From positions 1-61,288 of the forward strand of contig CAZWDQ010000003.1 of NCBI GenBank assembly GCA_964632475.1: 61,288 nucleotides of DNA, written 5' to 3'. Position 1 is the first letter of the stretch, and each line of letters opens with the position of its first letter. A program made the position numbers and the translations under genes. The DNA is from an uncultured Acidimicrobiaceae bacterium. Its GTDB lineage: Bacteria; Actinomycetota; Acidimicrobiia; Spongiisociales; UBA5794. Below the pieces are notes generated by a model. It saw only the letters and a program-made list of their open reading frames with translations. It was not told where the DNA came from and did not search any database. This document shows, one piece after another, positions 123 through 7,610 of the stretch.

Positions 123-635
123 CTAGCCGGGAAGGCCGAGGAACCCGATCTGGGCACCGGGGCCGGCGCTCTTGATTGCTTCCGGCATGTTCTCCGGATC
201 GAGGGCGCCATGCTCGGCGACCACGATGTGGTACTCCGCACCTTGGGCGTTCTCAACAGAGATGCTGCCTGCCAAGTTCACGTTGCCGCTTTGGCCGGTC
301 ACATGTCCAGCGATCTGCTGCACCTTGAACCCGACTGCGTCGGGCCGCTCTTCGGCATCGTCGGACCCGCAACCATCGAGACAATTGCCTGGTTTCGAGA
401 ACGAGAATCCCCAGAGGGTGTACACGTTCCCCGGAACAAGGCCGCTCGTCTTCACCCTGATGGTGGCCCTGTGGGTCGTTGCGGTCAGATCGATCGAGGA
501 TCCTTCCACTTCAATCATGGGGGGGGGAAGCGTCAGCATCGTCGATCTCTCATGACTGGCCGGAGCCGCTGCCGCCGGCGCCAACGCCGCCAGCATCCAA
601 ACGACTGTTGCTGCCACGATTACTTTCTTGCGCAT
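123..635 (-). CDS. exported protein of unknown function (paralog of the 4412..5095 product)
   Basis: ORF 123..713(-) trimmed to the ATG at 635. The N-terminus MRKKVIVAATVVWMLAALAPAAAAP looks like a Sec signal peptide. No family recognised. The C-terminal half aligns by eye with the 4412..5095 product (YTLWGFSFSKPGNCLDGCGSDD vs FTLWVAVFNNPDLCTDSACDADD; AEYHIVVAEHG vs AEIHAFIAPHG). Confidence 0.6.
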   Translation of the reverse strand: MRKKVIVAATVVWMLAALAPAAAAPASHERSTMLTLPPPMIEVEGSSIDLTATTHRATIRVKTSGLVPGNVYTLWGFSFSKPGNCLDGCGSDDAEERPDAVGFKVQQIAGHVTGQSGNVNLAGSISVENAQGAEYHIVVAEHGALDPENMPEAIKSAGPGAQIGFLGLPG

Positions 636-803
636 GGGATCTCCTGTCCCTAGACGTAGCGCCAGGCAACACGCGAAGCCTTGATGGCTACTTAGCAAAT
701 GCTTGCAGGGCAATGGCTTCTGGCGTTAAGCCGCCAGTAAGGTCGCCGTGGTCTCCTCACAATGTGGGGTTTCGGGTGCGTATGGTTGTCATGGGAGGGG
801 CCA

Positions 804-3800
804 ATGGAGTACCGAGTCCTCGGCTCTGTCGAGGTACTTGATGACGATGGTTCGCCGGTTGACATCGGCGCCAGGCAACAACGTGCACTCCTGGCCATCC
901 TCCTCGCCAACGTCGGCCGGGTCGTCTCGACCGAGCGGATCCTCGACGAGCTGTGGGCGAACGATCCTGAGGGCAAGGAAAAGACTCTCTGGGTGTACAT
1001 CTCCCGGCTGCGCAGTGCTCTCGAGCCGACTCGCGCCGCGCACTCCAAAGGCACTGTCCTGGTGACTCGCGATCACGGCTACGCCCTCACCATCGACCCT
1101 GACGACGTCGACGCCCACCGCTTTGGCGCGTTGGTGGAGAAAGGTCGCGCCCTGGTGCGAGACAACCCAACGGCTGCCGCCGAGCTGCTGACCGACGCAC
1201 TGGCGATGTGGCGGGGCGAGCCTTACGAGGATTTCACCTATGACGACTTCGCCCAGGGTGAGATCACCAGCTTGCGCGAGATGCAGCTGGCCGCTACGGA
1301 AGACCGTGTCGACGCTGAGATTCGCACTGGTCGCCAGCGGGAGGTCATCGGAGAGCTCGATGGCCTGATGCGGGCCAACCCGCTGCGGGAACGACCGGTC
1401 GAGCTGCTCATGATCGCCCTGTACCGCTCGGGGAGACAGGCAGATGCGCTGCGCACCTACCAAAGCCACCGACGCACGGTCGGCGAAGGGCTTGGTATCG
1501 AGCCTTCGCCTGAGCTGCGGCGCATCGAAGAGCAGGTATTGCTGCACGATCCCCGCCTCAACCCGTTCGGCGAGCCTGCTTCCCTCGAACCGGCGCAACA
1601 GACCCAGAACCCTTTCAAGGGTCTGCAGCCATTCACTGAGGGAGATGTCGCCGCGTTCTTCGGACGGGATCGCCTGACTTCTGAAATCGTGCGCCGTCTC
1701 GCCGCAGGCAATCGTCTGGTGACGTTGGTGGGTGCCAGTGGCTCGGGTAAATCGAGTGCGTTGCGCGCCGGCCTGATCCCGACGATGCGCAAGGGTGCGG
1801 TCGGCGATCCCGACGACTGGCTCGTCGCTCAGATGGTTCCCGGGTCGCACCCGTTCAGGGAGTTGGAGGTGGCGCTGCTGCGATCAACACTCGATTCCCC
1901 CGAGAGCCTTGCGGAGCTCCTCGACCATTCAGAGGACGGACTACTCCGAGCCGGACTACGGCTACTGCCGGAACACTCTGGTCGTCTTCTGCTGGTAATC
2001 GACCAGTTCGAGGAGCTGTTCACTCTCGTCGAATCCGAGCCGGAGCGGTTACGGTTCGTTCGCAACCTCGAAGTGGCACTGACCGATCCACACAACCGCA
2101 TCGTCGTCGCTCTCGCGTTGCGCGCCGACTTCTACGATCGGCCGCTCGCCTACGGCAGTTTTGCAGCGATGCTTGGCGACAGCATCATCAACGTTGTGCC
2201 GCTGACGCCAGACGAGCTGGAAGAGGCTGCTGAGGGCCCGGCCGAGCTCGCCGGTGTTGAGTTCGAACCCGAATTGCTGAACAGGCTGCTCAGCGACGTT
2301 GTAGGCCAGAGTGGCGGTCTGCCGCTGTTCCAATACGCTCTCACCGAACTATTCGACAGAAGAGCTGGCGCCCTACTCACGGCCCAGGCATATCAAGAGA
2401 TGCAGGGTGTCGGCGGCGCTATCACCCGGCGTGCCGAAGAGATCTATCTGGGGCTAACCCCTTCGGAGCAGACTGCCTGCAAGCAGCTCTTCCTGCGCCT
2501 AGTGACGATCGCCGAGGCCGGAGCGTGGAGCAGGCGGCGTGTGGCCGCCTCCGAAATCGTCACCATTGTTGAGGACGTTGTGGACTTGCAGTCGGTCCTC
2601 GACAAGTTCGCAGCGTTCCGCCTGTTGACGTTCGACCGTGACTACGCCAGCGGCTCACCGACCGTCGAAGTCGCCCACGAGGCGCTGCTCCACGAGTGGC
2701 CGCGCCTGACGGAATGGATCGAGGAAGGGCGCGACGACGTCATCCGCCACGCTCGCTTCCTGACCGCGCTCGGCGAGTGGCACGCCGCCGAGGAGAAGGC
2801 GGACTATCTGTTGTCCGGTAAGCGACTCTCCGACTACGAGAAGTGGGCCAACAGCAGCACGCTGCGTTTGACGAGCCGCGAGCAGCACTTCCTCGACGAC
2901 GCTATCGCCCAGCGGGAGGAGCAGCTCGCCGCCGAGGCCGAGCGGACCGCTCGCGAGTCCAAGCTCGACCGGCAGGCCAAGAGTCGCTTGCGCGGGTGGG
3001 CCGTCGCCGGGGCGCTGCTGAGCGTGGTCGCCGTGGCTTCATTGATTGCCGCTTTCGCCGGCAACCCACCCCGCATCGTTGCGGTCCACGGTGCGACCGG
3101 GGACTTCGGCATCAACGATCTGATGGTGGCGGGCGTGGCGTCTGCCGCTGACCAATTCGAGGTGGATATCGAGCAGCGCCAGCCGCTCATCGACCCGGTC
3201 GCCGACCTCCGTGAGCTCGCCAGCACCGGTGCGGACTTGATCGTCGTGAGCAGCGACTTCGACCAGGAGGTGCAGCTAGTGGCCGCCGAATACCCGGACG
3301 TCCGATTCGTCGGCATCGACCCTGTGCTGATCAAGGTCCCTGCCGCCAACATCACTGAGATGCACTTTGCGGTCGAGGACAGCGCATTCTTGGCAGGCGT
3401 CACCGCCGCTTTGGCATCGCAGTCCGCGGCCGTTGGATTCATCGGCGGATTTCAAACACGCGTCACCGAAAGCTCGCGGGTCGGCTTTGAGCGCGGGGCC
3501 ACCTTTGAAGACGCCGCAGTGAAGGTCGACTCTCGCTACCTCGGCCCGGTGGACGTGCCCTGGGTCAAGGGCAACGAAAGCCCCGACCTCGCCTACCAGT
3601 TGGCGGTCGAGATGTACGCCTCGGGCGTCGACGTCATCTATCACAACGCAGGCAATTCGAGTGCCGGCATCCTCCAGGCCGCCCGAGAGATGTCGACGGG
3701 CGATCGGCACCTGTGGGTTATCGGTTCCGAGGTCGACCAGGCGCTGACAACACCTTCCGCAGAAGACGGTGCATATGTGCTCGCCTCGGCAATCAAGCGC

Positions 3801-4415
3801 TACGACTCGGCAGTCGTCAATACCGTCGAAGCGTTCCTTGCGGGCGAATTGCCGGCGGGCGATGTCGAACTCGGGCTCGTTGAAGACGGCGTAGGACTGG
3901 CGGATACCGGAGGCCATCTCGATACTTTGGGCATCCTCGGCCAGGTCCTCATCATGGAGGGTGAGATGTTGATAGACCACATTCCGCTACCGCCCTATGC
4001 GGAAGCTGGTCCCGATTGGCAGTACGATGCCGATGTCACCATCCACATGGTGTTGGGTAGCGACTTCTGCCGGGTAACCAAAGTCGAAGGCGCCGAGGAG
4101 ATCGACGGCCGGATCCGGATCCCGCGCGGCGATCGCGTGATCGTTCGCATGGATAGTCAAACCGACCAAGTCGGCGGGATTGCGGTCAGCCCCATTGCAC
4201 TCGGGACCGGGCTGGATCAGCTCGCCAGAGAGGCAGCCACCGGCATTCCGCCGTCGTTGGGCAAGCCGCTTGCCCTGTCACTGACAGCGCCGCAGGCATC
4301 GACGGCGGTCTCCGCTGTTATGGACGGCACGCCGTTCGTGCCCAATTGTTTCTTCCTCGAACCGACGTACTTCCCTGCCGACTTCCTACCAGTGATTGTG
4401 AGTCCCGCATCATGA
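804..4415 (+). CDS. SARP/BTAD transcriptional regulator fused to an nSTAND-type P-loop NTPase, one TM helix and an extracytoplasmic BMP/PnrA-like binding domain
   Basis: ORF 762..4415 trimmed to MEYRVLGSVEVL, the typical SARP N-terminus. BTAD motifs WRGEPYEDF and LYRSGRQADALRTYQ. STAND signature NPFKGLQPFTEGDVAAFFGRDR, Walker A GASGSGKSS (nt 1729-1755), Walker B LLLVIDQFEELF. TM helix WAVAGALLSVVAVASLIAAFAG (nt 2997-3062). BMP-like region DLIVVSSDFDQEV..VRFVGID..EDSAFLAGVTAALASQSAAVGFIGG (about nt 3075-3960). The last ~150 aa are unassigned. Confidence 0.85.
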   Translation: MEYRVLGSVEVLDDDGSPVDIGARQQRALLAILLANVGRVVSTERILDELWANDPEGKEKTLWVYISRLRSALEPTRAAHSKGTVLVTRDHGYALTIDPDDVDAHRFGALVEKGRALVRDNPTAAAELLTDALAMWRGEPYEDFTYDDFAQGEITSLREMQLAATEDRVDAEIRTGRQREVIGELDGLMRANPLRERPVELLMIALYRSGRQADALRTYQSHRRTVGEGLGIEPSPELRRIEEQVLLHDPRLNPFGEPASLEPAQQTQNPFKGLQPFTEGDVAAFFGRDRLTSEIVRRLAAGNRLVTLVGASGSGKSSALRAGLIPTMRKGAVGDPDDWLVAQMVPGSHPFRELEVALLRSTLDSPESLAELLDHSEDGLLRAGLRLLPEHSGRLLLVIDQFEELFTLVESEPERLRFVRNLEVALTDPHNRIVVALALRADFYDRPLAYGSFAAMLGDSIINVVPLTPDELEEAAEGPAELAGVEFEPELLNRLLSDVVGQSGGLPLFQYALTELFDRRAGALLTAQAYQEMQGVGGAITRRAEEIYLGLTPSEQTACKQLFLRLVTIAEAGAWSRRRVAASEIVTIVEDVVDLQSVLDKFAAFRLLTFDRDYASGSPTVEVAHEALLHEWPRLTEWIEEGRDDVIRHARFLTALGEWHAAEEKADYLLSGKRLSDYEKWANSSTLRLTSREQHFLDDAIAQREEQLAAEAERTARESKLDRQAKSRLRGWAVAGALLSVVAVASLIAAFAGNPPRIVAVHGATGDFGINDLMVAGVASAADQFEVDIEQRQPLIDPVADLRELASTGADLIVVSSDFDQEVQLVAAEYPDVRFVGIDPVLIKVPAANITEMHFAVEDSAFLAGVTAALASQSAAVGFIGGFQTRVTESSRVGFERGATFEDAAVKVDSRYLGPVDVPWVKGNESPDLAYQLAVEMYASGVDVIYHNAGNSSAGILQAAREMSTGDRHLWVIGSEVDQALTTPSAEDGAYVLASAIKRYDSAVVNTVEAFLAGELPAGDVELGLVEDGVGLADTGGHLDTLGILGQVLIMEGEMLIDHIPLPPYAEAGPDWQYDADVTIHMVLGSDFCRVTKVEGAEEIDGRIRIPRGDRVIVRMDSQTDQVGGIAVSPIALGTGLDQLAREAATGIPPSLGKPLALSLTAPQASTAVSAVMDGTPFVPNCFFLEPTYFPADFLPVIVSPAS

Positions 4416-5095
4416 ACCAAACGATTTCGCCACCAACCTCGAGAAAAGCCGCCATCAGATCGAGCCGGAAGTCGAAAGCCGCTGGGATCGGCCTGGTGGT
4501 GGCGACATTGGCGTTGACCTCCTGCGGAGGGGATGAGGCCAAGGGAGAAGTCTCGAACGTAATGGAGCAAGGCGCTAGCGAGTCCATCCTGGCCGTCGAC
4601 GGCGCCGAGCTGGTGCGTACCGCAGACGGGATTCGTTTGCGCGAAACGGTCCCCACTCCGCCTCCGGGCAGCTATGAGTACCCGGTCGCTGAAATGGTGC
4701 CGCCGTGGAGCACCCCGCACCCTGAGGTTTCCCCAGGAAGCGAAGACGAACCGGAAGCCTTCACGCTGTGGGTGGCCGTCTTCAACAACCCGGACCTATG
4801 CACCGACAGTGCCTGCGATGCCGATGACCTGACGGCAGACGCGGCCGCTCAGGGCGGGATGTACCAGGCAGACGGGCGCGTCGCCGACGAGTCTGAAATC
4901 GAGTTCGCGGGAGCTGTGCGGCTGGGACAGGATCCGTCCACCGGGGCAGCGCTGGAAAATCCGCTTGGCGCCGAAATCCACGCGTTCATCGCACCCCACG
5001 GTAAGGCGCTCACCGGACCAGACCTGTGGCGCCAGCTCAACGGCCCGGTCGGTACCCCGGCGCTGTGGTGGGCCGCGGTGTTCTCGGCGGGCTAG
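4412..5095 (+). CDS. lipoprotein of unknown function (paralog of the 123..635 product)
   Basis: ORF 4346..5095 trimmed to the ATG at 4412, which overlaps the upstream stop as ATGA (4412-4415). Basic N-terminus followed by GIGLVVATLALTSC, a lipobox-like LTSC. The C-terminal half is similar to the 123..635 product. Confidence 0.65.
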   Translation: MNQTISPPTSRKAAIRSSRKSKAAGIGLVVATLALTSCGGDEAKGEVSNVMEQGASESILAVDGAELVRTADGIRLRETVPTPPPGSYEYPVAEMVPPWSTPHPEVSPGSEDEPEAFTLWVAVFNNPDLCTDSACDADDLTADAAAQGGMYQADGRVADESEIEFAGAVRLGQDPSTGAALENPLGAEIHAFIAPHGKALTGPDLWRQLNGPVGTPALWWAAVFSAG

Positions 5096-6999: not shown

Positions 7000-7251
7000 T
7001 CAGCCTTGGGCCTCCAAAGAAGAACGGTCCACCCGGCGCTTCACAACGAACGGAATGACCGCAAGCAGCACGAAGCAGATCGCGGCGATGATCGTTATCA
7101 AGCGCTGATGGCCCTCAGAGTTGAACTCGACTCCGAAGGTCGTCGCGACAGCCCCTACAAGCAGACCGGCAGTGAGAGCGATCGCCGCTGAAGCAAGGAG
7201 CCACACGAGGTACCCGACGACGAACTTCCAGGTTGCGGCGTCTTCGCCCAT
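7000..7251 (-). CDS. small membrane protein (2 predicted TM helices)
   Basis: 83-aa ORF with two hydrophobic helices. Its ATG shares one nt with the upstream stop (TGATG at 7249-7253), which suggests translational coupling. Confidence 0.5.
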   Translation of the reverse strand: MGEDAATWKFVVGYLVWLLASAAIALTAGLLVGAVATTFGVEFNSEGHQRLITIIAAICFVLLAVIPFVVKRRVDRSSLEAQG

Positions 7252-7610
7252 CAGCCGGTGACGAAGCGAAGGGTCAGTGGGTACCGATAGAACTCACCGT
7301 TCGCGGCCTTGATCCCGGCGATGATCATCACCACGAGGGCGAAGATCAGAACGACGAAGATCAAAACGAATCCGATCAGAACGAACATGAGGAGCACCGA
7401 GGCGATCACGTAGATGATCAGAGAGATCTGGAAGTTCAGAGCCTCTCGTGCGTGGTACTCGATGAACGAGTCTTCGTCGCGCTTGATCAACCAGATCACC
7501 AGTGGGCCGATGAAACTGAGCCCGATCAACGGAACGAGGTGCGCTGCTGTTGCCCAGCCGCGTGATTCGGAGGGAACGGGTTCCGGTACGGCCGGGTAGT
7601 CGCTGGTCAT
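7251..7610 (-). CDS. DUF4870-like integral membrane protein
   Basis: 119 aa. The pattern HLVPLIG..IGPLVIWLIKRDEDSFIEYHAREALNFQISL..G..YRYP is typical of the DUF4870 family as I recall it. Confidence 0.7.
   Translation of the reverse strand: MTSDYPAVPEPVPSESRGWATAAHLVPLIGLSFIGPLVIWLIKRDEDSFIEYHAREALNFQISLIIYVIASVLLMFVLIGFVLIFVVLIFALVVMIIAGIKAANGEFYRYPLTLRFVTG

What the first reader, a model, noticed from the sequence alone, without database searches (positions are those of the whole stretch)
804..4415. Transmembrane SARP-nSTAND ATPase with an extracytoplasmic BMP/PnrA-like sensor domain
**Seen in sequence.** One uninterrupted 1203-codon frame encodes the following, in order:
- an OmpR/SARP winged helix
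- a BTAD domain
- a STAND P-loop module with the nSTAND-type N-terminal signature (NPFKGLQPFTEGDVAAFFGRDR ... GASGSGKSSALRAGLIP ... LLLVIDQFEELF)
- a charged coiled linker
- a single 22-residue hydrophobic helix (nt 2997-3062)
- about 300 aa resembling Bmp/Med/PnrA periplasmic nucleoside-binding lipoproteins
- about 150 aa, beta-rich, of no family I recognise

**Established knowledge.** SARP/BTAD-STAND regulators (AfsR type) normally carry cytoplasmic TPR or WD40 sensor arms. BMP-family proteins are extracytoplasmic substrate-binding proteins.

**Inference.** The protein would be a ToxR/CadC-style membrane-tethered transcription factor. Its extracellular ligand domain (possibly nucleoside-binding) would gate a STAND ATPase switch and a SARP DNA-binding head. 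I do not know of any description of this combination.
Basis: partly seen in the sequence, partly recalled or inferred. Interest (0 to 1): 0.8.

Follow-up and report, generated by a model that had tools for sequence, protein, structure and literature searches.

The report
Membrane-anchored SARP–STAND regulator with outside sensor
This is a real gene for a single-pass membrane protein that joins a DNA-binding activator and an ATP-driven switch inside the cell to a small-molecule-binding domain outside; it belongs to a widespread but unstudied family of Acidimicrobiia and sits in a conserved three-gene unit with its own likely DNA binding sites.

Summary
ORF 804-4415 (+) encodes 1203 aa, in this order:
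- Trans_reg_C
- BTAD
- nSTAND1 (361 bits)
- a charged linker
- the only hydrophobic helix (aa 732-753)
- a Bmp/PBP1 domain (147 bits)
- a ~150-aa β-domain with two invariant cysteines

It is not an assembly fusion. 118 of the 120 best database hits (44-97% identity) share all four Pfam domains.

New findings:
1. The gene sits in a conserved three-gene cassette. Paralogous extracytoplasmic proteins of an unnamed family flank it. One is divergent upstream. The other is downstream, with ATGA stop/start overlap.
2. The 168-bp divergent spacer carries pentamers spaced exactly 11 nt apart, pointing outward to both genes. Across 13 orthologous loci there are 22 such pairs against 0.76 expected. This matches SARP-box geometry.
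3. The Bmp pocket keeps the ribose-type polar triad but has lost the aromatic sandwich needed for nucleosides. A nucleoside ligand is therefore unlikely.
4. The nSTAND1-TM scaffold recurs across phyla with other heads (Ser/Thr kinase) and other tails (WD40, SBP_bac_1).

I found no published description; public names are automated only. The best reading is a ToxR-like, membrane-tethered, autoregulated STAND transcription activator. It is a new variant of known kinds, and its ligand and physiological role are unknown.

The parts
123..635 (-). Upstream divergent gene ('up'): ~170-aa secreted protein with a Sec-type signal (MRKKVIVAATVVWMLAALAPAAAAP). It is a paralog of the downstream gene and has no Pfam family.
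   Evidence: ORF. ATG at 633-635 with GGAGA 5 nt upstream on the minus strand. BLASTP against the downstream protein gives E 7e-6. It aligns within the family, sharing the invariant W, 2 Cys, D and 2 His. Homologs are in the same position in 12 of 13 orthologous loci. No Pfam hit.
680..706 (-). Three pentamers (read on the minus strand GCAAG 706-702, CTAAG 695-691, TCAAG 684-680) spaced exactly 11 nt apart and facing the upstream gene. Candidate SARP box for the divergent promoter.
   Evidence: The only minus-strand matches to [TGC][TC]AAG-N6-[TGC][TC]AAG in the 61-kb window are at 706 and 695. Reverse-orientation 11-nt pairs occur in 9 of 13 orthologous spacers.
726..741 (+). Two pentamers, TTAAG (726-730) and GTAAG (737-741), 11 nt apart and facing the regulator. 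Candidate SARP box for the regulator-downstream operon.
   Evidence: TTAAGN6SYAAG has one match in the window against 0.02 expected. Six of the 7 matches in 88 loci lie at the same place in orthologous cassettes. A forward 11-nt pair with its proximal copy 56-68 nt before the start codon is found in 11 of 13 loci.
752..757 (+). TCTCCT, within the conserved TGGTCTCCT (749-757). It lies 8 nt after the proximal heptamer GTAAGGT and is a candidate weak/extended -10 element.
   Evidence: A T-N4-T hexamer sits at this fixed offset in 9 of 11 loci. The geometry matches the SARP promoter rule quoted in PMC10936776. The function is inferred.
804..4415 (+). Regulator gene, 1203 aa plus stop codon.
873..1541 (+). 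SARP head: OmpR-type winged helix (aa 24-95) plus BTAD (aa 102-246). Cytoplasmic.
   Evidence: Pfam 53.7 and 147.6 bits. NCBIfam AfsR and BagI/FevR models match aa 2-311 but far below their cut-offs.
1611..2798 (+). nSTAND1 NTPase module (aa 270-665). Walker A GASGSGKSS is at nt 1731-1757 and Walker B LLLVIDQFEE at nt 1986-2015.
   Evidence: Pfam nSTAND1 360.6 bits over model positions 1-377 of 379. Motif residues are invariant in 26 relatives.
2799..2996 (+). Charged, conserved linker (aa 666-731) ending in a K/R-rich stretch (AERTARESKLDRQAKSRLRG).
2997..3062 (+). Single transmembrane helix (aa 732-753, WAVAGALLSVVAVASLIAAFAG), oriented N-in/C-out.
   Evidence: The only strongly hydrophobic 19-mer window, Kyte-Doolittle 2.43. 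Mean K/R of 6.8 before versus 0.85 after, in 26 relatives. An equivalent helix occurs about 400-430 aa after Walker A in about 75 of 84 nSTAND1 relatives.
3078..3902 (+). Extracytoplasmic Bmp/PBP type-I domain (aa 759-1033) with an altered pocket.
   Evidence: Pfam Bmp, 147 bits. PDB sequence hits to BmpA, BmpD, PnrA and TmpC at E 1e-19 to 1e-27. AlphaFold pLDDT 95.3. Foldseek E 2e-22 to BmpD, with TM-score normalised to target of 0.70-0.84 to BmpD, PnrA and Med. Pocket residues.
3963..4412 (+). C-terminal extracytoplasmic beta-domain (aa ~1054-1203) with invariant C1089 and C1182. No named family. Possibly cupredoxin-like, without copper ligands.
   Evidence: No Pfam hit. 9-10 strands and one helix at pLDDT >87. 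The cysteines are invariant in 47 of 47 sequences. 25 of 30 sub-threshold PDB profile hits (E 0.3-1.6) are cupredoxin domains, which is a lead only.
4412..5095 (+). Downstream gene ('dn'): 227-aa lipoprotein-like extracytoplasmic protein (LALTSC lipobox). Its ATG overlaps the regulator's TGA (ATGA). It belongs to an unnamed beta-sandwich family.
   Evidence: The junction reads gcatcATGAacc. 86 homologs, all unnamed. 16 of 33 homologs on contigs >3.3 kb share an exact contig length with a regulator hit. It is adjacent in 12 of 12 loci where the contig extends. Model pLDDT is 88, with the core >95. No confident PDB fold match.

Best explanation
The gene encodes a membrane-tethered one-component transcription activator built on a STAND switch.

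**Shown**
- The N-terminal 730 aa (SARP winged helix, BTAD, nSTAND1 NTPase with intact Walker A and B, charged linker) are followed by one N-in/C-out helix.
- After the helix come a Bmp-type binding domain and a disulfide-type beta-domain.
- The gene sits in a conserved cassette between two paralogous extracytoplasmic proteins.
- The divergent spacer carries 11-nt-spaced direct repeats pointing at both transcription units.

**Inferred**
1. A small polar ligand binds the cleft of the Bmp domain outside the cell. It is probably sugar- or polyol-like rather than a nucleoside.
2. Closure of the domain, and/or a change in its contact with the co-produced downstream lipoprotein, is passed through the helix and linker.
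3. This relieves autoinhibition of the nSTAND1 module, which exchanges ADP for ATP and self-associates.
4. The SARP heads then line up side by side on the repeats that replace the -35 element and recruit RNA polymerase.
5. This activates the regulator-downstream operon (positive autoregulation) and the divergent upstream paralog.

The downstream protein may be a ToxS-like partner of the outside domains as well as an output.
For: **Domains and motifs:**

**Topology**
- A single hydrophobic helix.
- The K/R bias holds in 26 relatives.
- The fold after the helix belongs to an extracytoplasmic family.
- Two cysteines are invariant in 47 of 47 sequences.

**Not an artefact:** 118 of the 120 best hits, from independent NCBI, JGI, ENA and Logan assemblies, keep all four domains at 44-97% identity.

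**Cassette**
- It is found in all 13 orthologous loci examined, while the outer neighbours differ.
- The stop/start overlap with the downstream gene is present in the window. By gene coordinates it is also present in L085, L086, L088, L089 and L091.
- In L088 the cassette is bracketed by IS21 elements.

**Cis elements**
- The strict pattern occurs once in 61 kb against 0.02 expected.
- 22 pairs have exact 11-nt spacing against 0.76 expected (0 of 2000 shuffles); spacings of 10 and 12 nt are at background.
- Density is 7.66 per kb in the spacers against 0.16 per kb in the other 183 kb of the same sources.
- The only three 11-nt pentamer pairs in the whole window lie in this spacer and point outward.
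- A T-N4-T hexamer lies 8 nt after the proximal repeat in 9 of 11 loci.
- This matches the SARP promoter rule, and the ATP-relieved NOD inhibition described for AfsR, in PMC10936776.

**Pocket:** D839 and K998 are present in 47 of 47 sequences, and residue 976 is D, E or N (residue roles from PMC13325309).

**Modularity:** relatives swap Bmp for SBP_bac_1 or WD40 behind the same helix. That is the expected pattern if the tail is the sensor.
Against: - No experiment exists for any member.
- Topology rests on hydropathy and charge bias, not on a dedicated predictor or on fusions.
- No mechanism is known by which a single helix could control a STAND NTPase. Classical STAND sensors contact the NOD directly.
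- The pentamer class was defined after looking at the loci, and the loci are related. The shuffle statistics therefore overstate independence. Only 1 of 4 held-out loci matched the strict pattern, and the others matched variants in the same register.
- The reverse-side boxes are irregular in position.
- The proposed -10 (TCTCCT) is a poor match to TANNNT.
- nSTAND1 was described in conflict systems, not in metabolic sensing.
- The ligand is unknown.
Confidence: 0.6

Rival explanations
1. It is a surface threat sensor of a conflict or defence system. The nSTAND1 module acts as an immune-type receptor that detects an invader or competitor product outside the cell. The SARP head then switches on defence genes, here the two flanking secreted paralogs.
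For: - nSTAND1 was defined in predicted counter-invader systems (PMC8195603; PMC10907252).
- Relatives of the same scaffold carry kinase heads and WD40 tails, typical of such systems.
- The cassette is compact and is IS-bracketed in L088.
- The flanking paralogs belong to a fast-diverging extracellular family.
Against: - No PADLOC model matches any of the three proteins.
- The sensor is a small-molecule binding fold with a strongly conserved pocket (D839, R892 and K998 in 47 of 47 sequences), not a diversifying surface.
- The cassette has no recognisable toxin or effector enzyme.
- The cassette is single-copy and syntenically stable across 44-68% identity.
Confidence: 0.12
2. The downstream lipoprotein, not a free small molecule, is the primary input. 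In this ToxR/ToxS-, TcpP/TcpH- or PsaE/PsaF-like arrangement, the outside Bmp plus beta-domain forms an obligate complex with the co-translated partner. The signal is a change in that complex (partner occupancy, folding, disulfide state or metal load).
For: - The ATGA overlap implies coupled production, and the overlap recurs in 5 other loci.
- Regulator and partner co-occur strictly.
- The up/dn paralogs were found only next to regulators that carry this particular C-terminal beta-domain (L001, L081-L092). They were absent next to Bmp-type relatives with other tails: L002, L024, L006, L020.
- The partner family has invariant 2 Cys, 2 His and Asp, suggesting a redox or metal site.
- One locus lies next to CopC/CopD and DUF1775 genes.
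Against: - The Bmp cleft residues are as conserved as in true ligand binders.
- No complex prediction could be run.
- The partner fold has no confident relative: best Foldseek E 0.012, TM <=0.38.
- The copper neighbourhood is seen in only one locus.
- This reading is compatible with the main explanation rather than exclusive of it.
Confidence: 0.2
3. The full-length protein is an inactive membrane-parked precursor. Signal-dependent proteolysis at or near the helix releases the soluble SARP-nSTAND1 part, which then acts like a conventional cytoplasmic large SARP.
For: - Regulated intramembrane proteolysis is established for other membrane-tethered regulators (own knowledge).
- About 730 cytoplasmic residues resemble a complete SARP-NOD regulator.
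Against: - No protease gene is conserved in the cassette.
- ToxR-type regulators act without release (own knowledge).
- Nothing in the sequence marks a cleavage site.
Confidence: 0.06

Closest known systems
AfsR-type 'large' SARPs (SARP-NOD-TPR; AfsR, PolY, RslR3)
   Same: - An N-terminal OmpR-type winged helix plus BTAD, followed by a STAND-class P-loop NTPase.
- Target sites made of direct repeats at 11-nt spacing, replacing the -35 element.
- The NOD is expected to inhibit the SARP head until ATP is bound (PMC10936776).
   Different: - The NTPase is nSTAND1, not NB-ARC. The NCBIfam AfsR model scores 171 bits against a cut-off of 1430 and covers only aa 2-311.
- There is no TPR arm.
- The sensor lies on the other side of a membrane.
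- The gene is not in a biosynthetic gene cluster.
- The 2024 SARP review never mentions a membrane form.
ToxR-like membrane-tethered one-component regulators (ToxR/ToxS, TcpP/TcpH, PsaE/PsaF, CadC)
   Same: - A cytoplasmic OmpR-type winged helix at the N-terminus, one helix oriented N-in/C-out, and a periplasmic sensor.
- A co-transcribed extracytoplasmic partner gene immediately downstream.
   Different: - About 640 aa of BTAD plus an NTPase switch lie between the DNA-binding domain and the membrane. ToxR-type proteins have a short linker and no nucleotide switch (own knowledge).
- The outside domain is a PBP type-I fold plus a beta-domain.
- There is no sequence relationship beyond the winged helix.
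nSTAND1 NTPases of predicted conflict systems (Kaur et al. 2021)
   Same: The same Pfam family, matched end to end, with the three-part head-NTPase-sensor layout.
   Different: - The published examples carry death-like or effector-associated heads and lectin/FGE tails.
- Neither a SARP head nor a helix before the sensor is described there.
- No PADLOC match.
Bmp/PnrA/Med substrate-binding lipoproteins (BmpA, BmpD, PnrA/TmpC, RfuA, AtzT, Med)
   Same: - The same fold and family.
- The ribose-contacting Asp98/Asp225/Lys242 equivalents are kept.
- Med, the best structural match by TM-score normalised to target (0.84), is deposited in the PDB as a transcriptional activator of the comK gene rather than as a transporter component.
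   Different: - The domain is fused behind a transmembrane helix rather than lipid-anchored.
- No ABC transporter genes are adjacent in any of the 13 loci.
- The aromatic sandwich (Phe27/Phe176), plus Phe151, is replaced by I/V/M, V/I and S.
- New invariant H762, D767, D772, R892 and D978.
MalT (STAND transcription activator of E. coli)
   Same: A STAND NTPase that couples small-ligand sensing to oligomerisation-dependent transcription activation (own knowledge; cited as a paradigm in PMC10936776).
   Different: - MalT is soluble.
- Its DNA-binding domain is a C-terminal LuxR type.
- Its sensor contacts the NOD directly.

Membership tests
SARP family transcription activators | OmpR-type winged-helix DNA-binding domain at the N-terminus | tested here: met
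   Pfam Trans_reg_C, aa 24-95, 53.7 bits against a cut-off of 26.2.
SARP family transcription activators | BTAD (bacterial transcriptional activation domain) directly after the winged helix | tested here: met
   Pfam BTAD, aa 102-246, full-length match, 147.6 bits. NCBIfam BagI/FevR SARP model E 1e-41.
SARP family transcription activators | Targets carry direct repeats 11 or 22 bp apart, with the 3' repeat 8 bp from the -10 | tested here: met
   The sequence pattern is present and specific. The rule is taken from PMC10936776. Actual binding was not tested.
SARP family transcription activators | Binds DNA and activates transcription | not testable with these tools
   Needs EMSA, footprinting or a reporter assay.
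STAND NTPases, nSTAND1 clade | Match to the nSTAND1 model over its full length | tested here: met
   360.6 bits, model positions 1-377 of 379.
STAND NTPases, nSTAND1 clade | Intact Walker A and Walker B motifs | tested here: met
   GASGSGKSS (aa 310-318) and LLLVIDQFEE (aa 395-404). G310, S312-S318, D400, E403 and E404 are invariant in 26 relatives.
STAND NTPases, nSTAND1 clade | Nucleotide-dependent switching and oligomerisation | not testable with these tools
   Needs biochemistry.
AfsR-type large SARP | NB-ARC-type NOD plus C-terminal TPR sensor; passes the AfsR equivalog model | tested here: not met
   The NCBIfam AfsR model scores 171 bits against a cut-off of 1430 and covers aa 2-311 only. 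There are no NB-ARC or TPR Pfam hits, and the NTPase is nSTAND1.
Bmp/PnrA substrate-binding proteins | Bmp family match and PBP type-I two-lobe fold | tested here: met
   Pfam 147 bits. Foldseek E 2e-22 to BmpD (6shu), with TM-score normalised to target of 0.70-0.84 to BmpD, PnrA and Med.
Bmp/PnrA substrate-binding proteins | Free lipoprotein or secreted protein serving an adjacent ABC transporter | tested here: not met
   The domain is fused after a transmembrane helix. No ABC transporter genes flank the gene in 13 loci.
Bmp/PnrA substrate-binding proteins | Nucleoside pocket: aromatic sandwich (BmpA Phe27, Phe176) essential for binding | tested here: not met
   The aligned positions are I770 (family I/V/M/A) and V916 (family V/I, with 3 Y). 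Phe151 is S891. The residue roles come from PMC13325309. The result rests on sequence alignment, not on a superposition.
Bmp/PnrA substrate-binding proteins | Polar residues that hold the ribose (BmpA Asp98, Asp225, Lys242) | tested here: met
   D839 in 47 of 47 sequences; residue 976 is D (34), E (7) or N (6); K998 in 47 of 47.
ToxR-like membrane-tethered regulators | N-terminal cytoplasmic winged helix, single helix N-in/C-out, periplasmic C-terminal domain | tested here: met
   The topology comes from hydropathy and the positive-inside rule only.
ToxR-like membrane-tethered regulators | Short juxtamembrane linker with no nucleotide switch; homology of the periplasmic domain | tested here: not met
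   BTAD, nSTAND1 and the linker (aa 102-731) lie between the winged helix and the helix. The outside domains are Bmp plus a beta-domain.
Known anti-phage defence systems (PADLOC-DB) | Match of any cassette protein to a defence-system model | tested here: not met
   Only a P-loop-level hit (mad8, E 0.005, 14 bits, no stretch passing). Nothing for the flanking proteins.

The most novel reading that the evidence does not exclude
The nSTAND1-linker-helix scaffold is a general, undescribed class of transmembrane STAND receptors in Actinomycetota, Chloroflexota and Cyanobacteria. In it, an extracytoplasmic sensor (Bmp, SBP_bac_1, SBP_bac_3, WD40 propellers) controls a cytoplasmic NTP-driven oligomerisation switch across a single helix. 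The outputs are interchangeable (SARP transcription activator, Ser/Thr kinase, kinase plus LuxR). The window's gene would be its most tractable example, because input domain, output sites and regulon are all in one 5-kb cassette.
Probability: 0.45. Interest if true: 0.8.

Novelty: new variant of a known kind. Interest (0 to 1): 0.62.

Why it matters
STAND switches (AfsR, MalT, Apaf-1, NLRs, Avs) are understood as soluble proteins whose sensor arm touches the NTPase directly. Here the sensor is on the other side of the membrane. If the switch responds to it, the signal must pass through one helix. That would be a mode of STAND control that I could not find described.

It would also add a third design for bacterial transmembrane signalling, alongside histidine kinases and ToxR-type regulators. 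The design has a built-in ATP-dependent threshold.

The cassette is self-contained: sensor, switch, DNA-binding head, predicted operator and two target genes lie within 5 kb. It could therefore be moved into a model actinobacterium and tested directly. Its swappable outside domains suggest a natural chassis for biosensors.

It also gives a first functional handle on two unnamed extracytoplasmic domain families. One of them has about 1200 representative sequences.

Tried and rejected
1. **Assembly or frameshift fusion: rejected.** 118 of the 120 best hits from independent assemblies keep the full architecture, and composition is even across the gene.
2. **Nucleoside ligand: disfavoured.** The Phe sandwich is lost.
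3. **C-terminal beta-domain homologous to the flanking paralogs: rejected.** hhalign probability is 0.4%.
4. **Naming the C-terminal domain.**
   - Pfam scans of 21 members found nothing.
   - The PDB profile search gave only sub-threshold hits, mostly cupredoxin domains, kept as a lead.
   - The third homolog search with its profile returned only 7 gene fragments from short contigs, so it said nothing about other architectures.
The Foldseek hits for the two-domain model covered only the Bmp part.
5. **Naming the flanking family.**
   - No Pfam hit.
   - No significant PDB sequence match; the PDZ-like hits at E about 0.6 are noise.
   - Foldseek best E is 0.012 (mycobacterial SodC, TM 0.35), with several weak Cu,Zn-SOD hits. 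This is not accepted as a match.
6. **Defence system:** no PADLOC match.
7. **A 7-codon minus-strand mini-ORF over the box** (ATG present in L082 and L083): rejected, because the window and L081 lack a start codon there.
8. **Literature.** Searches for nSTAND1, SARP with transmembrane/STAND, membrane-anchored SARP, STAND with transmembrane/WD40, and BTAD with substrate-binding protein found no description. A 2026 preprint on an actinobacterial threat-sensing pathway (PMC13622651) uses a secreted WD40-Ig protein with kinase/FHA signalling and is unrelated.
9. **Other copies of the box in the window:** none.

Full report
**1.

An open frame runs from 762 to 4415 on the + strand.

Pfam gives four domains, all well above the curated cut-offs:
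- Trans_reg_C, aa 24-95, 53.7 bits
- BTAD, aa 102-246, 147.6 bits
- nSTAND1, aa 270-665, 360.6 bits, model positions 1-377 of 379
- Bmp, aa 759-1033, 147 bits

NCBIfam models for AfsR and BagI/FevR match the first ~310 aa but fall far below their cut-offs. The head is therefore SARP-type, but the protein is not an AfsR ortholog.

GC content is even across the gene.

**2. It is not an assembly artefact, and it is not rare**

Of the 120 best database hits, 118 carry the same four Pfam domains. They are 1150-1380 aa long and 44-97% identical. They come from independent NCBI, JGI, ENA and Logan assemblies, including contigs of 0.4-4.2 Mb. Where sources name them, the organisms are Acidimicrobiia, Acidimicrobiales or Actinomycetota MAGs.

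The names are automated:
- "BTAD domain-containing putative transcriptional regulator"
- "BMP family ABC transporter substrate-binding protein"
- "nSTAND1 domain-containing NTPase"
- "basic membrane lipoprotein Med / DNA-binding SARP"

The Walker A residues (G310, S312-S318), the Walker B residues (D400, E403, E404) and the N-terminal nSTAND1 signature are invariant in 26 relatives.

**3. Topology**

In 26 family members, the 20 residues before the helix hold on average 6.8 K/R and the 20 after it hold 0.85. By the positive-inside rule, the SARP-nSTAND1 part is cytoplasmic and the Bmp part is outside.

Three further points agree with this:
- Bmp proteins are extracytoplasmic substrate-binding proteins (PMC7093131).
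- The C-terminal domain has two cysteines that are invariant in 47 of 47 sequences.
- Relatives place other extracytoplasmic binding-protein families (SBP_bac_1, SBP_bac_3) behind the same helix.

No dedicated topology predictor was available, so this remains a strong inference.

**4. The outside half**

A model of aa 755-1203, built on 47 sequences, has mean pLDDT 95.3 and pTM 0.93. The high pTM suggests that the two domains pack in a fixed way.

Foldseek matches the first ~320 residues to BmpD (E 2e-22), PnrA of S. pneumoniae and T. pallidum, RfuA, AtzT and Med. TM-scores normalised to the target are 0.61-0.84, with Med highest at 0.84.

I compared the pocket residues with those named for BmpA (PMC13325309), using the HMMER alignments and family counts.

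| BmpA residue | Role | Window residue | Family (47 sequences) |
|---|---|---|---|
| Asp98 | ribose contact | D839 | D in 47 |
| Asp225 | ribose contact | E976 | D 34, E 7, N 6 |
| Lys242 | ribose contact | K998 | K in 47 |
| Phe27 | aromatic sandwich | I770 | I, V, M, A |
| Phe176 | aromatic sandwich | V916 | V, I, a few Y |
| Phe151 | pocket | S891 | mostly S |

Mutating either Phe27 or Phe176 to alanine abolishes binding in BmpA. New near-invariant residues appear in this family: H762, D767, D772, R892 and D978.

A nucleoside is therefore unlikely. A polar ligand, perhaps carrying a diol, is plausible. The ligand is not identified.

The last ~150 aa form 9-10 strands and one helix and have no Pfam match. 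25 of 30 sub-threshold PDB profile hits are cupredoxin domains aligned on one strand motif. This is a lead, not a result.

**5. A conserved three-gene cassette**

The regulator is flanked by two small extracytoplasmic proteins that are paralogs of each other (BLASTP E 7e-6; joint alignment with an invariant W, two Cys, Asp and two His).
- One is divergent upstream (123-635, minus strand, Sec signal).
- One is downstream (4412-5095, lipobox LALTSC). Its ATG overlaps the regulator's TGA, reading gcatcATGAacc.

I examined 13 orthologous loci at 53-68% protein identity.
- The upstream paralog is present in 12.
- The downstream paralog is present in all 12 whose contig extends that far.
- The outer neighbours differ from locus to locus.
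- By gene coordinates, the stop/start overlap recurs in L085, L086, L088, L089 and L091.
- In L088 the three genes are bracketed by IS21-type transposase pairs on both sides.

16 of 33 downstream-family hits on contigs longer than 3.3 kb share an exact contig length with a regulator hit.

The flanking family has no Pfam model. A profile search finds 1193 representatives at E <= 0.001. They share a ~110-aa core, which also occurs in tandem in proteins carrying dockerin, cohesin or Planctomycete extracellular signals. So this is an extracellular domain family.

Its model (pLDDT 88, core above 95) is a beta-sandwich with no confident structural relative. The best hit is E 0.012 with TM 0.35, to a mycobacterial lipoprotein Cu-SOD, and there are several weaker Cu,Zn-SOD hits.

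**6. Candidate operator**

The 168-bp spacer (636-803) holds two sets of pentamers:
- TTAAG (726) and GTAAG (737), 11 nt apart, facing the regulator.
- On the other strand GCAAG, CTAAG and TCAAG (706-680), also 11 nt apart, facing the upstream gene.

Evidence that this is specific:
- The strict pattern TTAAG-N6-SYAAG occurs once in the 61-kb window against 0.02 expected.
- It occurs in 7 of 88 fetched loci, and 6 of those matches lie at the equivalent place in orthologous cassettes.
- Across the 13 orthologous spacers, same-orientation pentamers of the class [TGC][TC][AC]AG are exactly 11 nt apart 22 times against 0.76 expected (0 of 2000 shuffles). They are 22 nt apart 5 times (P 0.002). Spacings of 10 and 12 nt are at background.
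- In the other 183 kb of the same sources, the 11-nt spacing is not enriched: 0.16 per kb against 7.66 per kb in the spacers.
- The only three such pairs in the whole window lie in this spacer and point outward.
- In 11 of 13 loci the forward pair has its proximal copy 56-68 nt before the start codon.
- In 9 of those 11, a T-N4-T hexamer lies 8 nt after the proximal heptamer. It is TCTCCT in the window, within the conserved TGGTCTCCT.

This is the published SARP promoter geometry: repeats 11 or 22 bp apart, with the 3' repeat 8 bp from the -10 (PMC10936776).

Caveats:
- I defined the pentamer class after seeing the loci.
- The loci are related to one another.
- Of four held-out loci, one matched the strict pattern and three carried variants in the same register.
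- The reverse-side boxes vary in position.

**7. The wider scaffold**

I fetched 84 genomic loci encoding nSTAND1 relatives. About 75 have one strongly hydrophobic segment 400-430 aa after the Walker A, followed by a tail of 150-1100 aa.

| Locus | Lineage | Architecture |
|---|---|---|
| L007 | Chloroflexia | SARP-BTAD-nSTAND1-helix-SBP_bac_1 |
| L029 | Thermoleophilia | SARP-BTAD-nSTAND1-helix-WD40 |
| L019 | Pseudonocardiales | SARP-BTAD-kinase-nSTAND1-helix-WD40 |
| L010 | Acidimicrobiia | kinase-nSTAND1-helix-WD40 |
| L008 | Aggregatilineales | kinase-nSTAND1-helix-WD40 |
| L024 | Ilumatobacter | Bmp variant with a longer tail |

(Pfam domains; the helix is from the hydropathy scan. In L008, sequence between the kinase and nSTAND1 looks LuxR-like by eye; Pfam's top-25 listing did not confirm this.)

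The sample is biased towards relatives of the query. Even so, the finding is clearly one sensor variant of a modular transmembrane nSTAND1 scaffold.

**8. Literature**

- nSTAND1 was named as an NTPase of predicted conflict systems, with other heads and tails (PMC8195603, PMC10907252).
- The 2024 SARP review lists small, medium, large (NB-ARC-TPR) and SARP-LAL classes and never uses the words membrane or transmembrane.
- Five further searches found no description of this fusion.
- The search covers open-access papers and bioRxiv only.

**9. Mechanism**

Shown: the domain order, the topology indicators, the conserved cassette and the periodic repeats.

Inferred:
1. A ligand binds in the Bmp cleft outside, possibly with the co-produced lipoprotein as a partner of the outside domains, as in ToxR/ToxS.
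2. The change is passed through the helix and the conserved charged linker.
3. Inhibition of the nSTAND1 module is released, ATP is bound and the protein self-associates, as shown for AfsR's NOD.
4. The SARP heads bind side by side on the repeats and recruit RNA polymerase.
5. This activates the regulator-downstream operon and the divergent paralog.

I put this at about 0.6.

| Rival | Confidence | Main points |
|---|---|---|
| Defence-type surface sensor | 0.12 | No PADLOC support; the pocket is conserved rather than diversifying |
| Partner-centred sensing | 0.2 | Compatible with the main reading |
| Proteolytic release | 0.06 | No conserved protease in the cassette |

**10. Verdict**

The protein is a member of the SARP, nSTAND1 and Bmp families by domain. 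It fails the defining tests for an AfsR-type large SARP, a transport-type Bmp protein and a ToxR-family member. It works most like a ToxR-type tethered activator with an AfsR-type nucleotide switch inserted.

I rate it a new variant of known kinds, with moderate-to-high interest. The main reasons are the transmembrane STAND principle and the ready testability of the cassette.

Noticed in passing
L088:1-9615 (ENA ERZ25071369 contig_22): The three-gene cassette is bracketed on both sides by IS21-type gene pairs (rve/Mu-transposase_C plus IstB) in the same orientation. It looks like a composite transposon, which would suggest the cassette moves as a unit.
   Followed up: no
L086:1-2800: In this ortholog the upstream paralog is replaced by a 177-aa gene with a weak Cupin_2 hit. 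The next genes are a CopC-CopD fusion and DUF1775 (YcnI-like), which are copper-handling genes. Together with the invariant 2 His/2 Cys of the flanking family and the weak SOD/cupredoxin-like leads, this hints at a metal link. It is seen in one locus only.
   Followed up: partly
L004-L080 (genome-contig loci), e.g. L008:6792-11549, L019:2160-7502, L029:7806-12158: About 75 of 84 nSTAND1 relatives have one hydrophobic helix between the NTPase and the tail. They come from Chloroflexota, Actinomycetota (including Streptomyces and Ornithinimicrobium), Cyanobacteria, Acidobacteriota and Planctomycetota. The tail is usually a ~700-aa WD40 region, so those propellers would be extracytoplasmic. The heads include Ser/Thr kinase and, in L008, sequence that looks LuxR-like by eye.
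   Followed up: partly
window:749-757 and 793-800: The conserved TGGTCTCCT upstream of the regulator is also complementary to the regulator's Shine-Dalgarno sequence (GGGAGG). If it were transcribed it could mask the ribosome-binding site. This competes with my reading of it as a -10 element and was not resolved.
   Followed up: no
P0367-P0374 (cluster of P0034): Several members of one 90% cluster are short pieces (247, 358 and 615 aa on one 197,778-nt contig; 339 and 439 aa on one 12,691-nt contig). The gene is therefore split in some long contigs, either by frameshift errors of long-read assemblies or as pseudogenes.
   Followed up: no
P0253, P0283, P0307, P0313: The ~110-aa core of the flanking-paralog family occurs in two to four tandem copies. 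The proteins that carry it are larger, with dockerin, cohesin and Planctomycete extracellular-signal domains. It is therefore a widespread unnamed extracellular domain (1193 representatives).
   Followed up: partly
window:5861-6988 (-), 7000-7251 (-), 7251-7610 (-): Immediately downstream of the cassette there are three genes. One is a 375-aa protein with a C-terminal GNAT acetyltransferase domain; its length would allow a second, N-terminal copy as in MshD-type enzymes, but only the C-terminal domain was detected. One is an 83-aa membrane protein. One is a DUF4870 membrane protein. They are not conserved next to the cassette in other loci.
   Followed up: no
window:44144-44217 (+): This is the only Rfam match in the window: one tRNA gene (66.6 bits). 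There are no riboswitches or other RNA families near the cassette.
   Followed up: no
P0079, P0087, P0102, P0107, P0112, P0118: Some full-length relatives extend the outside part with SnoaL-like domains (PF12680, PF14534). P0118 adds a second binding-protein domain (SBP_bac_3 plus Lig_chan-Glu_bd). So the outside region is itself modular.
   Followed up: no
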